Assembly (NCBI GenBank): GCA_019323015.1
Contig: JAHWHY010000006.1
Span: 1,008 to 65,007 of the forward strand
DNA length: 64,000 nt
DNA from: Candidatus Woesearchaeota archaeon
GTDB taxonomy: Archaea > Nanobdellota > Nanobdellia > Woesearchaeales > ARS49
Direction of reading: 5' to 3'
Shown piece after piece: positions 9,832 through 11,080 of this stretch. Within the stretch, counting starts at the first letter, position 1. Each line of letters starts with the position of its first letter. The translations under genes and the position numbers were made by a program. The notes beneath the pieces are model-generated. The model was given only the letters and a program-made list of their open reading frames with translations, did no database searches and was not told the origin of the DNA.

Positions 9832-10149
9832 TCAGGGTTGGTTTAAATCAGTTTCGGGTGGCTGGCCGTGGAAACTCGATATTGAATATAGCATTCCATC
9901 CGGGCACCTGCAGATGGAGTATCCTTTTTGGTCTTTTTCTATGAATTGTGCTGGTTCTGTTATGATGCTGCATTTTACTGCATCGCAGGCCGTGTTTTTT
10001 CCAAATTGTGCACCTCCTGTTATGAGTTTCTGGAATTCACTTTTTTCATAGCCTCTTGATATGTCATCTAAGAGCACTATTCCTAGTATTGCGATTATTG
10101 CTACAACATCTAGAATAATAAATGCAAGTCTTTTTTGTTCGCGGTTCAT
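9832..10149 (-). CDS. small membrane-anchored Cys-rich protein, paralog D (105 aa)
   Basis: N-terminal TM helix, an (I/T)TG motif, then VKC and CRCPDG Cys motifs. Starts 1 nt after paralog C. Confidence 0.65.
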   Translation of the reverse strand: MNREQKRLAFIILDVVAIIAILGIVLLDDISRGYEKSEFQKLITGGAQFGKNTACDAVKCSIITEPAQFIEKDQKGYSICRCPDGMLYSISSFHGQPPETDLNQP

Positions 10150-10150
10150 T

Positions 10151-10441
10151 TTAGTAAGGGTTTCTGTAATCTATCTGGAAAGTTTGTCCGTTTGGGCAGC
10201 TGCAGATTGCGGTCTTGGTTACAGCGCTCTCTTCTGATTGCACTTCGCCGATTTGAACTGCGTCTGCTCCGCATGGTCCTCTGGCACAGACATTATATGT
10301 TGGCAGGAATACTTCTGGGTTTCTGTGTATTAATTGCTGGTATGTTGCTGCCCCTGTTGTGCTTTTGTAGAACAGAAAAAGGCCTGCTACTGCAATTATT
10401 GCAACTATTAGCAGGATTATTAATGCGATTTTTGAGTTCAT
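10151..10441 (-). CDS. small membrane-anchored Cys-rich protein, paralog C (96 aa)
   Basis: TM helix, TTGAA, CARGPCGAD and CSCPNG. Overlaps paralog B by 4 nt. Confidence 0.65.
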   Translation of the reverse strand: MNSKIALIILLIVAIIAVAGLFLFYKSTTGAATYQQLIHRNPEVFLPTYNVCARGPCGADAVQIGEVQSEESAVTKTAICSCPNGQTFQIDYRNPY

Positions 10442-10740
10442 TGAGGTTCACCTACTTTTACATAGCCAGGCATTTCATAGTATGGTATTGGTTCTTGCGG
10501 GCATGCGCAGTATACCCTGTTTGTGTATCTCTCTATTCCTAAAGGCATTCCATGCGCTCCATTTGGGCATTTTATTAAAGCACAAAGGTTTGTGTTTGCT
10601 TGTTTTCCGTATACGTATGCGTATGGTATTTTTTGCTGTCCAGACAGCATGCCTGTTGTTTCGCTGTTCACGAAAATGATCATTCCTGCGATTGCAATTG
10701 CTGCAATCAAGGTTATTGCGAGTATTGGTTTTGTTTCCAT
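10438..10740 (-). CDS. small membrane-anchored Cys-rich protein, paralog B (100 aa)
   Basis: TM helix, ETTGM, CALIKCPNG and CACPQE. Confidence 0.65.
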   Translation of the reverse strand: METKPILAITLIAAIAIAGMIIFVNSETTGMLSGQQKIPYAYVYGKQANTNLCALIKCPNGAHGMPLGIERYTNRVYCACPQEPIPYYEMPGYVKVGEPQ

Positions 10741-10741
10741 T

Positions 10742-11080
10742 TTAGCTTGTCAGGTACATTCCTTTTTGTGGCATTGGGTGCACCATTGGTATGTATATTT
10801 TTTGTTCTGGTTTTTCTGGGCAGTAGCACTCTGATAATTGCTGGTATGTATCCCACGGGCTGACTCCGCCCACTGTTGTGCTGAATATTGCGTGTCCGTT
10901 CTGGCAGGGCACGTATTCACATGCCTCTTCTGGGTAGCTGTACTGTATTACTCCTACCCCTTGCTGGCATCCTCCTGCGCATACATACTGTCCTGTTATG
11001 CTTAGTTTTAGGATAAATCCAGAAACAGCAACAACTAACACTAATGCTGCTAGAATTAATATGCTTTGTCTGTTATCCAA
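10742..11080 (-). CDS. small membrane-anchored Cys-rich protein, paralog A (112 aa)
   Basis: TM helix, ITGQ, CEYVPCQNG and CYCPEK; first gene of the array. Confidence 0.65.
   Translation of the reverse strand: MDNRQSILILAALVLVVAVSGFILKLSITGQYVCAGGCQQGVGVIQYSYPEEACEYVPCQNGHAIFSTTVGGVSPWDTYQQLSECYCPEKPEQKIYIPMVHPMPQKGMYLTS

What the first reader, a model, noticed from the sequence alone, without database searches (positions are those of the whole stretch)
9832..11080. Tightly packed four-gene operon of paralogous small membrane-anchored Cys-rich proteins (C..C...CxCP family)
Four consecutive minus-strand genes of 96-112 aa are separated by 1 nt, by -4 nt and by 1 nt. Each encodes an N-terminal TM helix, a short (I/T)TG motif and four positionally conserved Cys, as (V/I/G)(K/P)C and C(R/S/A/Y)CP(D/N/Q/E). 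These motifs are ACDAVKC...CRCPDG, CARGPCGAD...CSCPNG, CALIKCPNG...CACPQE and CEYVPCQNG...CYCPEK. I do not recognise this architecture as any named family. It looks like a lineage-specific expanded family of cell-surface, disulfide- or metal-binding mini-proteins. Together with the second Cys-rich family nearby, it is the best candidate in the window for an undescribed system, such as host-interaction or adhesion proteins of an episymbiont, or metal handling.
Basis: seen in the sequence. Interest (0 to 1): 0.75.

Follow-up and report, generated by a model that had tools for sequence, protein, structure and literature searches.

The report
Four-gene array of tiny archaeal surface proteins
Four back-to-back genes in a Woesearchaeota (DPANN archaeon) genome encode an unnamed, lineage-restricted family of about 100-residue proteins, each probably a membrane helix carrying a small four-cysteine head, and the array is conserved across related genomes next to a previously undescribed RNA-like element, though its function is still only inferred.

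Summary
Four real minus-strand genes lie at 9832-11080, with gaps of 1, -4 and 1 nt. dN/dS against relatives is 0.07-0.30. All four Cys (C-x4-C ... C-x-C-P) are invariant in a 100-sequence alignment.

The four are ancient, non-redundant paralogues in a fixed order, D-C-B-A. Deeper lineages carry 5-7 members. The array almost always ends with the A type and is followed by a 217-aa Hel308 N-terminal half.

Best reading (inferred): single-pass proteins whose conserved N-terminal helices assemble them into a heteromeric surface complex. This complex displays small disulfide-locked heads, following pilin-like logic.

True type IV pilin membership fails the motif, Pfam and machinery-linkage tests that could be run here. 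Metal binding and inverted topology are not excluded.

New in passing: an almost invariant ~97-nt structured element on the opposite strand (11233-11329), found once per array locus and absent from Rfam.

Interest is moderate.

The parts
10742..11080 (-). Gene D (112 aa, TTG start). It is the first gene of the array and encodes an N-terminal helix, ITG, C54-x4-C59 and C85-x-C87-P. An extra CAGGC pair is not conserved in relatives.
   Evidence: The protein is identical to NCBI protein KY338_04550 (P0001). dN/dS is 0.11-0.23. The conserved Shine-Dalgarno sequence AAAGAGGTGA and the TTG start are present in all 8 aligned loci, displaced by an insertion in L005.
10438..10740 (-). Gene C (100 aa). 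It carries the TTGM(L/I)SGQQKIPY signature, C53-x4-C58 and C78-x-C80-P.
   Evidence: dN/dS is 0.09-0.22.
10151..10441 (-). Gene B (96 aa). Its start overlaps the stop of C by 4 nt (ATGA). It carries the TTGAATYQQLIHR signature, C52-x4-C57 and C80-x-C82-P.
   Evidence: The AlphaFold model has pLDDT 79: helix 3-26, short helices at 51-54 and 58-60, and strands 62-67, 77-81 and 87-91. dN/dS is 0.08-0.17.
9832..10149 (-). Gene A (105 aa). It has the near-invariant helix RLAFIILDVVAIIAILGIVLLDD with an Asp inside it, a juxtamembrane helix SRGYEKSEFQKLITG, C55-x4-C60 and C80-x-C82-P.
   Evidence: 16 invariant columns in 28 A-type sequences, 12 of them in or flanking the helix. dN of the first 31 codons is 0.014-0.059 against 0.093-0.351 for the rest. 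The model has pLDDT 66 with helix 3-33.
9166..9819 (-). Probable fifth gene of the same transcription unit. It is a 217-aa stand-alone N-terminal RecA1 domain of a Hel308/Hjm-type helicase (a split gene) and starts 12 nt after A.
   Evidence: Pfam DEAD, E 5e-33. It aligns to residues 9-216 of the 720-aa P. furiosus Hjm (2zj2), E 3.5e-62. The same 217-226-aa length follows the array in almost all loci; L018 has a 2-gene insertion.
9113..9129 (-). The only terminator-like hairpin plus T-run on the minus strand in 8700-11500. It lies just after the helicase gene.
   Evidence: This is a bacterial-type pattern scan and is only suggestive for an archaeon.
11085..11131 (-). Promoter and ribosome-binding region of the array: a BRE-like CGAAAAG (11131-11125), a TATA-like TTTTTATATA (11124-11115) and the Shine-Dalgarno AAAGAGGTGA (11094-11085).
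   Evidence: The block is almost invariant in 8 loci whose D proteins are only 55-87% identical. The assignment as BRE/TATA rests on general knowledge of archaeal promoters and is an inference.
11233..11329 (+). Conserved structured element and candidate ncRNA on the strand opposite to the array. It has three helices (P1 10-13 bp, P2 6 bp, P3 5 bp) around an invariant loop UUCUCCCACCAGCCAA.
   Evidence: There is no Rfam match. Exactly one copy occurs per array locus.
11384..11992 (+). Divergently transcribed ArsR-type winged-helix regulator with two hydrophobic segments, making it membrane-tethered. It is the candidate regulator of the array.
   Evidence: Pfam HTH_5, E 1.3e-11. It is the conserved neighbour in all loci examined except L020.

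Best explanation
D, C, B and A, with the helicase half behind them, are read from one conserved archaeal promoter. Their 1-nt gaps and the ATGA overlap suggest translationally coupled, roughly equal production.

Each product is a single-pass protein with five parts:
- a 3-7-residue N-terminal tail, inferred to be cytoplasmic;
- a conserved 19-23-residue helix with a small-residue face (A-x-x-A-x-x-G);
- a TG hinge at the membrane surface;
- a flexible linker of about 20 residues;
- a head of about 45 residues, made of a short helix and a three-stranded sheet.

The head is inferred to be locked by two disulfides that tie the C-x4-C segment to the C-x-C-P strand.

The four are old, non-interchangeable paralogues, and their helices are conserved as well as or better than their heads. 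I therefore infer that the helices pack together and hold the four proteins in a heteromeric assembly at the cell surface. In this reading A is the core subunit, with an invariant Asp in its helix and an N-terminal module that also occurs fused to other heads. This is pilin-like logic: a shared hydrophobic assembly helix carrying variable small heads.

The heads evolve 2-7 times faster than neighbouring housekeeping genes, which fits an exposed role in contact or recognition.

Expression is probably controlled by the divergent membrane-tethered wHTH protein and/or the conserved structured element between the two.

Shown: gene structure, conservation, selection, family limits and the predicted fold. 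Inferred: topology, disulfides, hetero-oligomerisation, regulation and biological role.
For: - Gene packing and motifs.
- Purifying selection on all four genes, dN/dS 0.07-0.30.
- Four invariant Cys in 100 sequences.
- The same order D-C-B-A, with each paralogue keeping its own signature from 93% down to about 30% identity.
- Helix conservation: dN of the helix is lower than dN of the head for A and B, and the two are similar for C and D. This is the opposite of what a discarded signal peptide would show.
- The A-type helix is nearly invariant.
- The A-type N-terminal module is fused to unrelated, larger C-terminal domains in P0067 and P0075.
- In deeper lineages the arrays hold 5-7 genes. They share the N-terminal module (consensus LxILGIVAIIAVVGLVLLF..TG) but carry different Cys-rich heads.
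- Head Cys counts are always even (2, 4 or 6) in array members. The same genome encodes many Cys-rich lipoproteins, which would be extracytoplasmic.
- The model of B has pLDDT 79-94 over the head.
- The array proteins diverge much faster than their neighbours. In L015 they are 37-47% identical, against 78% for the helicase and 76% for ScpA.
- Net charge favours an N-in orientation in 68 of 100 members once the free amino terminus is counted.
Against: - No direct evidence of interaction, topology or disulfides was obtained.
- The charge bias is weak. It is tied in 22 members and reversed in 10, and many D-like members have a Lys directly after the helix.
- The head is so small that the absence of fold matches says little.
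- The conserved gene order sits inside a broadly syntenic block (SIMPL, regulator, array, helicase, DUF4870, FtsY, prefoldin, ScpA). Part of the linkage could therefore be inherited synteny.
- No function-bearing domain is attached or adjacent.
Confidence: 0.45

Rival explanations
1. The four are true type IV pilin-like subunits, comparable to a 'minor pilin' set. A prepilin peptidase would cut just before the hydrophobic helix, for example RLA|FIILD in A. A type IV machinery encoded elsewhere would then extract the helices from the membrane and polymerise them into a short fibre or tip complex carrying the Cys-locked heads.
For: - The layout is a tandem array of small paralogues that share only an N-terminal hydrophobic module while their heads differ.
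- The A type has a small residue (A or S) followed by [FLMYK]-I-I-L-D in all 28 sequences. This gives an acidic residue at +5 and Gly at +14, as in bacterial pilins (the comparison rests on my own knowledge).
- Distant members begin M..KG followed by hydrophobic residues, and 5 of 100 match my recalled version of the FlaFind class III pattern.
- One related six-gene array (L023) lies 3.5 kb from a Peptidase_A24 gene.
- Modular variants with the A-type N-terminus and other heads exist.
Against: - None of the four window proteins matches the FlaFind pattern.
- No member hits any pilin or class III signal Pfam model at E <= 0.1.
- No prepilin peptidase, PilB/ArlI-type ATPase or TadC/ArlJ gene was found among the roughly 40 window ORFs scanned, nor in the called genes of the loci where Pfam annotations were returned.
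- B, C and D lack an acidic +5 residue.
- The models show the helix ending at residue 26-33, followed by a low-confidence linker. A helix packed on the sheet, as in pilins, is not seen.
- The conserved TG hinge has no counterpart in pilins.
Confidence: 0.25
2. The N-terminal helix is a long Sec signal peptide, cut at or after the TG motif. The products would then be four small soluble disulfide-rich peptides of 60-85 aa released from the cell, for example as signals, toxins or antimicrobials resembling cysteine-stabilised mini-proteins.
For: - TG lies at the outer end of the hydrophobic segment in B, C and D.
- Gly is acceptable at the -1 position.
- The head is a compact 4-Cys mini-domain. 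A predicted short helix carries the first Cys pair and a strand carries C-x-C, which is reminiscent of cysteine-stabilised helix/strand peptides.
Against: - The hydrophobic segment is as conserved as the head or more so.
- Its length of 19-23 residues is that of a membrane anchor.
- The conserved residues are at -2 (T) and -1 (G). The -3 position is bulky or charged in many members: 25 Ile, plus K, L, F, N, Q, H and M. This does not fit the -3/-1 rule.
- In A the TG lies about 16 residues beyond the helix.
- Other exported proteins in the window use lipoboxes or ordinary signal peptides.
Confidence: 0.1
3. The four Cys bind a metal (a Zn or Fe Cys4 site) rather than forming disulfides. The topology could be inverted, with the N-terminus outside and the head in the cytoplasm. 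The array would then be a set of small membrane-anchored metal-binding or redox proteins, perhaps under a metal-sensing ArsR-type repressor, as in the SmtB-SmtA pair.
For: - Four invariant Cys is the classic number for a tetrahedral site.
- The charge bias across the helix is weak, and many members have Lys just after the helix.
- The divergent neighbour is an ArsR-family wHTH.
Against: - The spacing is C-x4-C and C-x-C, not two CxxC knuckles.
- Related array members have 2 or 6 Cys, always even and including a count that cannot build a Cys4 site.
- Cys content is about 4%, far below a metallothionein.
- The regulator has a single Cys and no recognisable alpha3 CxC or alpha5 His/Asp/Glu metal site (sequence; motif knowledge is my own).
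- The heads evolve fast, as exposed proteins do.
Confidence: 0.1

Closest known systems
Minor-pilin / pseudopilin operons of type IV filament systems (bacterial FimU-PilVWX, GspHIJK, ComGC-GG; archaeal EpdA-C and other class III signal peptide proteins)
   Same: Several small paralogous genes sit in a tight operon. Similarity between paralogues is concentrated in an N-terminal hydrophobic helix at the extreme N-terminus, while the C-terminal heads are variable. One subunit (A) has a small residue followed by four hydrophobic residues and an acidic residue. Disulfide-stabilised heads occur in many pilins. Modular variants with grafted C-terminal domains exist.
   Different: None of the four window proteins has a canonical [KR][GA] cleavage motif. 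There is no hit to pilin N-terminal Pfam models. No peptidase, ATPase or platform genes are linked. The head is about 45 residues and is joined by a flexible linker instead of being packed on the helix. The conserved TG hinge is unknown in pilins.
EGF-like domain
   Same: Both have C-x4-C near the start and C-x-C-P-x-G..[YF] on a beta hairpin. The best PDB sequence match is an EGF-like module of CD93, though at an insignificant E of 0.32. Two of 100 members give sub-threshold EGF Pfam hits.
   Different: The array heads have four Cys, not six, with the EGF C3 and C6 positions absent, so the EGF disulfide pattern cannot form. No significant sequence or fold match exists. The source is prokaryotic and the protein is membrane-anchored.
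Cysteine-stabilised helix/strand mini-proteins (CS-alpha/beta defensins, scorpion toxins)
   Same: A Cys pair on a short helix is predicted to face a C-x-C pair on a beta strand. The domain is small.
SmtB-SmtA type pair (ArsR-family repressor divergent from a Cys-rich metal-binding protein)
   Same: An ArsR-family wHTH gene is divergently transcribed from genes for small Cys-containing proteins, with a strongly conserved intergenic region.
   Different: The regulator is membrane-tethered and lacks the known metal-site motifs. The target proteins have only 4 Cys in about 100 residues and a membrane helix. The intergenic conservation fits an RNA structure on one strand better than a simple operator.

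Membership tests
Archaeal type IV pilin / class III signal peptide proteins | Charged residue followed by G/A immediately before the hydrophobic stretch (FlaFind-type pattern [KRDE][GA][ALIFQMVED][ILMVTAS]x3) | tested here: not met
   My regex version of the pattern, written from memory, matches 0 of the 4 window proteins and 5 of 100 family members.
Archaeal type IV pilin / class III signal peptide proteins | Hydrophobic helix of about 20 residues at the extreme N-terminus after a short polar tail | tested here: met
   Tails are 3-7 residues and the uncharged stretch is 19-23 residues in the window proteins. Models show helix 3-26 and helix 3-33.
Archaeal type IV pilin / class III signal peptide proteins | Recognised by pilin or class III signal profile models | tested here: not met
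   No pilin or class III signal family appears among Pfam or NCBIfam hits at E <= 0.1 for any of 100 members.
Archaeal type IV pilin / class III signal peptide proteins | Genomic linkage to a prepilin peptidase, secretion ATPase and platform protein | tested here: inconclusive
   None was found among the roughly 40 window ORFs scanned, nor in the called genes of L001-L006. A related array in L023 lies 3.5 kb from a Peptidase_A24 gene. The rest of the genome could not be searched.
Bacterial-type type IV pilins | Small residue at -1, hydrophobic +1 to +4, Glu/Asp at +5 | tested here: inconclusive
   The A type has [AS]-[FLMYK]-I-I-L-D in all 28 sequences. B, C and D have no acidic residue there.
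EGF-like domain | Six Cys forming C1-C3, C2-C4 and C5-C6, recognised by EGF profiles | tested here: not met
   Only four Cys are conserved. EGF Pfam hits are sub-threshold in 2 of 100 members. The best PDB sequence hit has E 0.32.
Zinc ribbon / Cys4 metal site | Two CxxC(-like) knuckles and a fold match to zinc ribbons | tested here: not met
Bacterial-type lipoproteins | Lipobox L-x-[GA]-C at the end of the signal peptide | tested here: not met
   The four proteins have no Cys in or just after the helix, whereas several other window proteins have LxGC.
Any described RNA family (for the element at 11233-11329) | Match to an Rfam covariance model | tested here: not met
   There is no gathering-score hit. 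With E <= 10 over 11060-11400, the only hit is a chance RAGATH-27 match outside the element.

The most novel reading that the evidence does not exclude
The array, its membrane-tethered regulator and the invariant structured RNA together would constitute a Woesearchaeota-specific cell-surface apparatus of a new kind. It would be a heteromeric, pilin-like but machinery-independent assembly of helix-anchored, EGF-like disulfide heads used for contact with partner cells. It would be switched by a new regulatory RNA and kept in one operon with half of a Hel308 helicase, which raises the possibility of a link to DNA transactions at the cell envelope.
Probability: 0.12. Interest if true: 0.75.

Novelty: new variant of a known kind. 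Interest (0 to 1): 0.45.

Why it matters
DPANN archaea such as Woesearchaeota are thought to live attached to or dependent on other cells, yet almost nothing is known about the molecules on their surface.

This locus offers several useful properties:
- It is a compact and deeply conserved set of candidate surface subunits.
- It has clear orthologous groups and an invariant four-Cys signature.
- It can be recognised in metagenomes.

It also comes with an unusually conserved non-coding element that is a candidate new structured RNA.

If the heteromeric, pilin-like reading holds, the locus would show a minimal way of building a surface structure in very small genomes.

If it does not hold, the locus is one more lineage-specific family of unknown function. 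Even then it has well-defined boundaries for future work.

Tried and rejected
- Family scans found nothing above noise. Pfam, NCBIfam and PHROGs scans of the four proteins, and Pfam and NCBIfam scans of all 100 family members, gave only generic membrane-helix matches.
- PDB sequence searches with the family profile and with the A-type profile gave only insignificant hits: ABC-transporter helices, an EGF module at E 0.32 and PilA chains at E 1.3-1.4.
- A search with the shared N-terminal module alone returned only unannotated 32-74-aa proteins or fragments, so it did not show which other proteins use this module.
- The genome scan with the whole-family alignment failed for lack of a conserved stretch. 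The A-type alignment worked.
- Functional coupling to the helicase was considered. The adjacency survives a rearrangement in L020 but is interrupted in L018, and the helicase fragment is simply the RecA1 half of a housekeeping Hel308. I therefore treat it as co-transcription, not as shown function.
- A link to the nearby Zot-like P-loop NTPase (13275-14126), which would suggest a filament-assembly idea, was considered. The linkage is only syntenic and its neighbours are cytosolic. I rejected it as evidence.
- A prophage or mobile-element origin was rejected. The region is chromosomal and syntenic across species, and the four proteins have no PHROG hits.
- A small protein-coding ORF as the explanation for the conserved intergenic block was rejected. 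A 7-nt indel lies inside the block and third-position variation is absent.
- Taxonomy of distant members could not be obtained.
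Full report
**1. What is in the sequence**

The window is archaeal. It holds a complete archaeal 16S rRNA gene at 558-2183 and the start of a 23S gene. Protein D of the finding is identical to NCBI protein KY338_04550 of a Candidatus Woesearchaeota MAG (P0001).

The ORF listing confirms four minus-strand ORFs:
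- D, 10742-11080 (112 aa, TTG start)
- C, 10438-10740 (100 aa)
- B, 10151-10441 (96 aa)
- A, 9832-10149 (105 aa)

The spacings are 1 nt, a 4-nt ATGA overlap and 1 nt.

Each protein has these features:
- a 3-7-residue polar N-terminus;
- a 19-23-residue uncharged stretch;
- a (T/I)TG, directly after the stretch in B, C and D and about 16 residues later in A;
- C-x4-C, then C-x-C-P.

A fifth gene starts 12 nt after A, at 9166-9819. The only terminator-like site on that strand lies after this fifth gene.

**2. Are the genes real, and is the pattern more than chance?**

A profile search returned 43 homologues of 64-115 aa. An exhaustive HMMER search of 1.84 billion cluster representatives returned only 67 clusters at E <= 1e-3.

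In alignments of 44 and of 100 sequences the four Cys are the only invariant columns. Pairwise dN/dS against five related genomes is 0.07-0.30 for each of the four genes, compared with 0.04-0.08 for the adjacent helicase gene.

The genes are therefore real and under purifying selection, and the Cys signature is a true family feature. D's additional CAGGC pair is not conserved. TG is present in 78 of 100 members, and the rest keep x-G.

**3. Conservation of the array**

Contig look-ups were made for homologues. A scan of one genome per GTDB species used the A-type alignment. It gave 11 loci: nine labelled Woesearchaeota and two labelled 'uncultured Methanosarcinales' that share the same synteny. 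A metagenome scan added 8 loci.

These searches show the same order D-C-B-A in every close and mid-distance relative. Each paralogue keeps its own signature:
- A: RLAFIILDxVAIIAIL...FQKLITG
- B: ATYQQLIHR
- C: TTGMISGQQKIPY
- D: TGQYxxAGG..IQYSYP

This holds from 93% down to about 30% identity. In the deepest lineages (L015-L020) the array has 5-7 genes. All share the N-terminal module, and some carry a different 6-Cys or 2-Cys head.

Further arrays occur at other genomic places. L021 is in the same assembly as L016, and L023 holds six genes. So this is an old family with fixed, non-redundant members, not a recent expansion.

The array sits in a larger syntenic block: SIMPL, wHTH regulator, array, helicase half, DUF4870, FtsY, prefoldin, ScpA. 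Part of the linkage may therefore be inherited synteny.

In L020 the flanks are different, yet the array, the helicase half and the RNA element (see section 7) are still together. In L018 two genes are inserted before the helicase.

**4. What the proteins look like**

No Pfam, NCBIfam or PHROG family matches any member above noise. No PDB sequence match is significant. The best is an EGF-like module of CD93 at E 0.32, which aligns C-x4-C and C-x-C-P-x-G.

AlphaFold with the 100-sequence alignment gives a usable model for B. Mean pLDDT is 79, and it is 79-94 over residues 50-92. The model has these elements:
- helix 3-26;
- a low-confidence linker;
- short helices at 51-54 and 58-60, around the first Cys pair;
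- three strands at 62-67, 77-81 (carrying C80; C82 follows directly) and 87-91.

The A model is weaker, with pLDDT 66 and helix 3-33.

**5. Anchor, signal peptide or pilin?**

Three observations argue that the N-terminal helix is a functional part of the mature protein.
- Among close relatives, dN of the first 31 codons is lower than that of the rest for A and B and similar for C and D. In 28 A-type sequences, 12 of the 16 invariant columns lie in or next to the helix.
- The same N-terminal module (consensus LxILGIVAIIAVVGLVLLF..TG, with two nearly invariant Gly) is shared by array members with unrelated heads from different genomes.
- A-type N-termini occur fused to larger, Cys-free C-terminal domains (P0067, P0075).

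This combination of a shared hydrophobic assembly helix and variable heads is the logic of pilins, so I tested pilin membership. The results were mostly negative.
- My regex version of the FlaFind class III pattern matches none of the four window proteins and 5 of 100 members.
- No pilin profile matches.
- No peptidase, ATPase or platform gene lies among the roughly 40 window ORFs scanned.
- The models do not pack the helix on the sheet.

Some points still favour pilins.
- The A type has [AS]-[FLMYK]-I-I-L-D in all 28 sequences, giving an acidic residue at +5 and Gly at +14 if cut after the A/S.
- Distant members begin M..KG followed by hydrophobic residues.
- One related array lies 3.5 kb from a Peptidase_A24 gene.

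I therefore keep 'true pilins' as the main rival, not the best reading.

A cleavable Sec signal peptide is less likely. The helix is conserved and as long as a membrane anchor. The conserved residues are at -2 and -1 rather than -3 and -1. In A the TG lies far from the helix.

**6. Outside or inside; disulfide or metal?**

The charge difference across the helix is small. The N flank averages +0.5 (plus the free amine), and the 15 residues after the helix average +0.07. The N side is more positive in 68 of 100 members, tied in 22 and less positive in 10. Topology is therefore inferred, not shown.

Several points favour an external, disulfide-bonded head.
- Every array member in all loci has an even number of head Cys: 2, 4 or 6.
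- The window encodes several Cys-rich lipoproteins and an Lgt homologue.
- The heads evolve much faster than neighbouring housekeeping genes.

A Cys4 metal site, possibly with inverted topology, remains a minority alternative.

The divergent regulator is ArsR-family by Pfam. On inspection it has one Cys and none of the metal-site motifs I know from SmtB/ArsR. It also has two hydrophobic segments, which makes it a membrane-tethered wHTH.

**7. Surroundings: the helicase half and a conserved RNA-like element**

The fifth gene encodes exactly the first RecA-like domain of Hel308/Hjm. It aligns to residues 9-216 of the 720-aa P. furiosus protein at E 3.5e-62. It has the same 217-226-aa length in all relatives, so it is a split gene and not a pseudogene. 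I regard its link to the array as co-transcription.

The 300-nt spacer between D and the regulator gene is more conserved than the genes themselves. One block of about 46 nt is identical in genomes whose D proteins are only 55-59% identical, and a 7-nt indel rules out coding.

The region contains two conserved units.
- The first is the probable array promoter and ribosome-binding site: CGAAAAG-TTTTTATATA ... AAAGAGGTGA ... TTG.
- The second is an element of about 97 nt at 11233-11329.

The element has three helices around an invariant loop, UUCUCCCACCAGCCAA. Several lines of evidence support a structured RNA on the plus strand.
- All 16 distinct variants fold better on the plus strand (z -2.9 to -7.4) than on the array strand (z -0.6 to -4.1).
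- In 12 aligned variants, 246 of 247 helix cells are standard pairs on the plus strand, against 227 on the minus strand, because of G-U pairs.
- The formal count gives 99.6% paired, against 43-55% for slid controls. Only one pair shows a change on both sides, C-G to U-A.
- In L015 and L016 both arms of P1 are lengthened together.

A covariance model built from the 12 variants finds exactly one copy per array locus. This includes three loci not used to build it, and no copies are found elsewhere.

An exact-match scan of metagenomes found 8 further copies. Each has ArsR-TM and/or array genes on its contig, and the element lies between them wherever both are present. Rfam has no match.

In L020 the element lies 1.8 kb from the array, at a GalT/GDE gene junction. 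There it falls inside the 5' end of the called GDE ORF, which may be an over-extended start.

I interpret the element as a candidate new structured RNA, either an sRNA or a leader on the regulator's strand, that belongs to this locus. A DNA-level operator cannot be excluded, but the strand asymmetry argues for RNA.

**8. Verdict**

This is an undescribed family restricted to Woesearchaeota, and it most probably consists of helix-anchored, disulfide-locked mini-proteins made together.

My best explanation, at confidence 0.45, is a heteromeric surface assembly held by the conserved helices. It is pilin-like in logic but fails the pilin membership tests that could be run. The alternatives are true type IV pilins (0.25), secreted peptides (0.10) and metal binding or inverted topology (0.10).

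Function remains inferred. The finding is of moderate interest, and the conserved RNA-like element adds to it.

Noticed in passing
window 11233-11329 (+); also L001, L004-L006, L010-L020, L024-L031: An almost invariant ~97-nt element lies between the array and the regulator gene. It has three helices around the invariant loop UUCUCCCACCAGCCAA, folds better on the plus strand, has no Rfam match, and occurs as exactly one copy per array locus. It is a candidate new structured RNA.
   Followed up: partly
window 9166-9819 (-): A stand-alone 217-aa protein equals only the first RecA-like domain of Hel308/Hjm. The same length is conserved in all relatives, so this is a split helicase gene. The C-terminal half is not among the window ORFs scanned.
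   Followed up: partly
window 22148-22897 (-): A strong match to bacterial prolipoprotein diacylglyceryl transferase (Pfam LGT, E 1.4e-79) occurs in an archaeon. It goes together with many predicted lipobox (LxGC) proteins in the window, for example 4871-5949, 12823-13107, 16630-17013 and 29612-30352.
   Followed up: no
It comprises three tandem lipoproteins with 10 Cys each and a separate 94-aa lipoprotein with 13 Cys. All are conserved in relatives and unrelated in sequence to the array.
   Followed up: partly
window 11384-11992 (+): An ArsR-type winged-helix protein with two hydrophobic segments and a loop of about 55 residues between them. It is a membrane-tethered regulator, divergent from the array in all loci examined except L020.
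   Followed up: partly
window 13275-14126 (-): A P-loop NTPase with hydrophobic N-terminal segments gives weak Zot/AAA matches. It is conserved 2-5 kb from the array in many relatives. In L004 and L006 a ~192-199-aa protein with the same helix-TG N-terminus and 4 Cys lies close to it on the opposite strand (separated by one small gene in L004).
   Followed up: partly
window 558-2183 (-); 4524-4653 (-); 17073-17200 (-): The 16S rRNA gene spans 1626 nt against a 1478-position model, which suggests insertions. Two tRNA matches of about 130 nt are found by Rfam but not by ARAGORN, probably intron-containing tRNAs.
   Followed up: no
L023 185-1051 and 3611-5565; L021 5341-7273: Related arrays occur elsewhere. 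L023 holds a six-gene array 3.5 kb from a Peptidase_A24 gene. L021 is a second, three-to-four-gene array in the same assembly as L016, not next to a helicase.
   Followed up: partly
P0102 (249 aa); P0067 and P0075: P0102 is one protein made of three consecutive helix-plus-Cys-rich modules. P0067 and P0075 are proteins with the A-type N-terminus fused to larger, unrelated C-terminal domains.
   Followed up: no
L020 10786-14910 (-): A 1374-aa protein with dozens of repeated Cys-rich modules, a C-terminal membrane segment and a Lys/Pro-rich tail lies near the divergent array.
   Followed up: no
window 38002-39639 (-): A 545-aa ORF has no Pfam match at E <= 1e-5.
   Followed up: no
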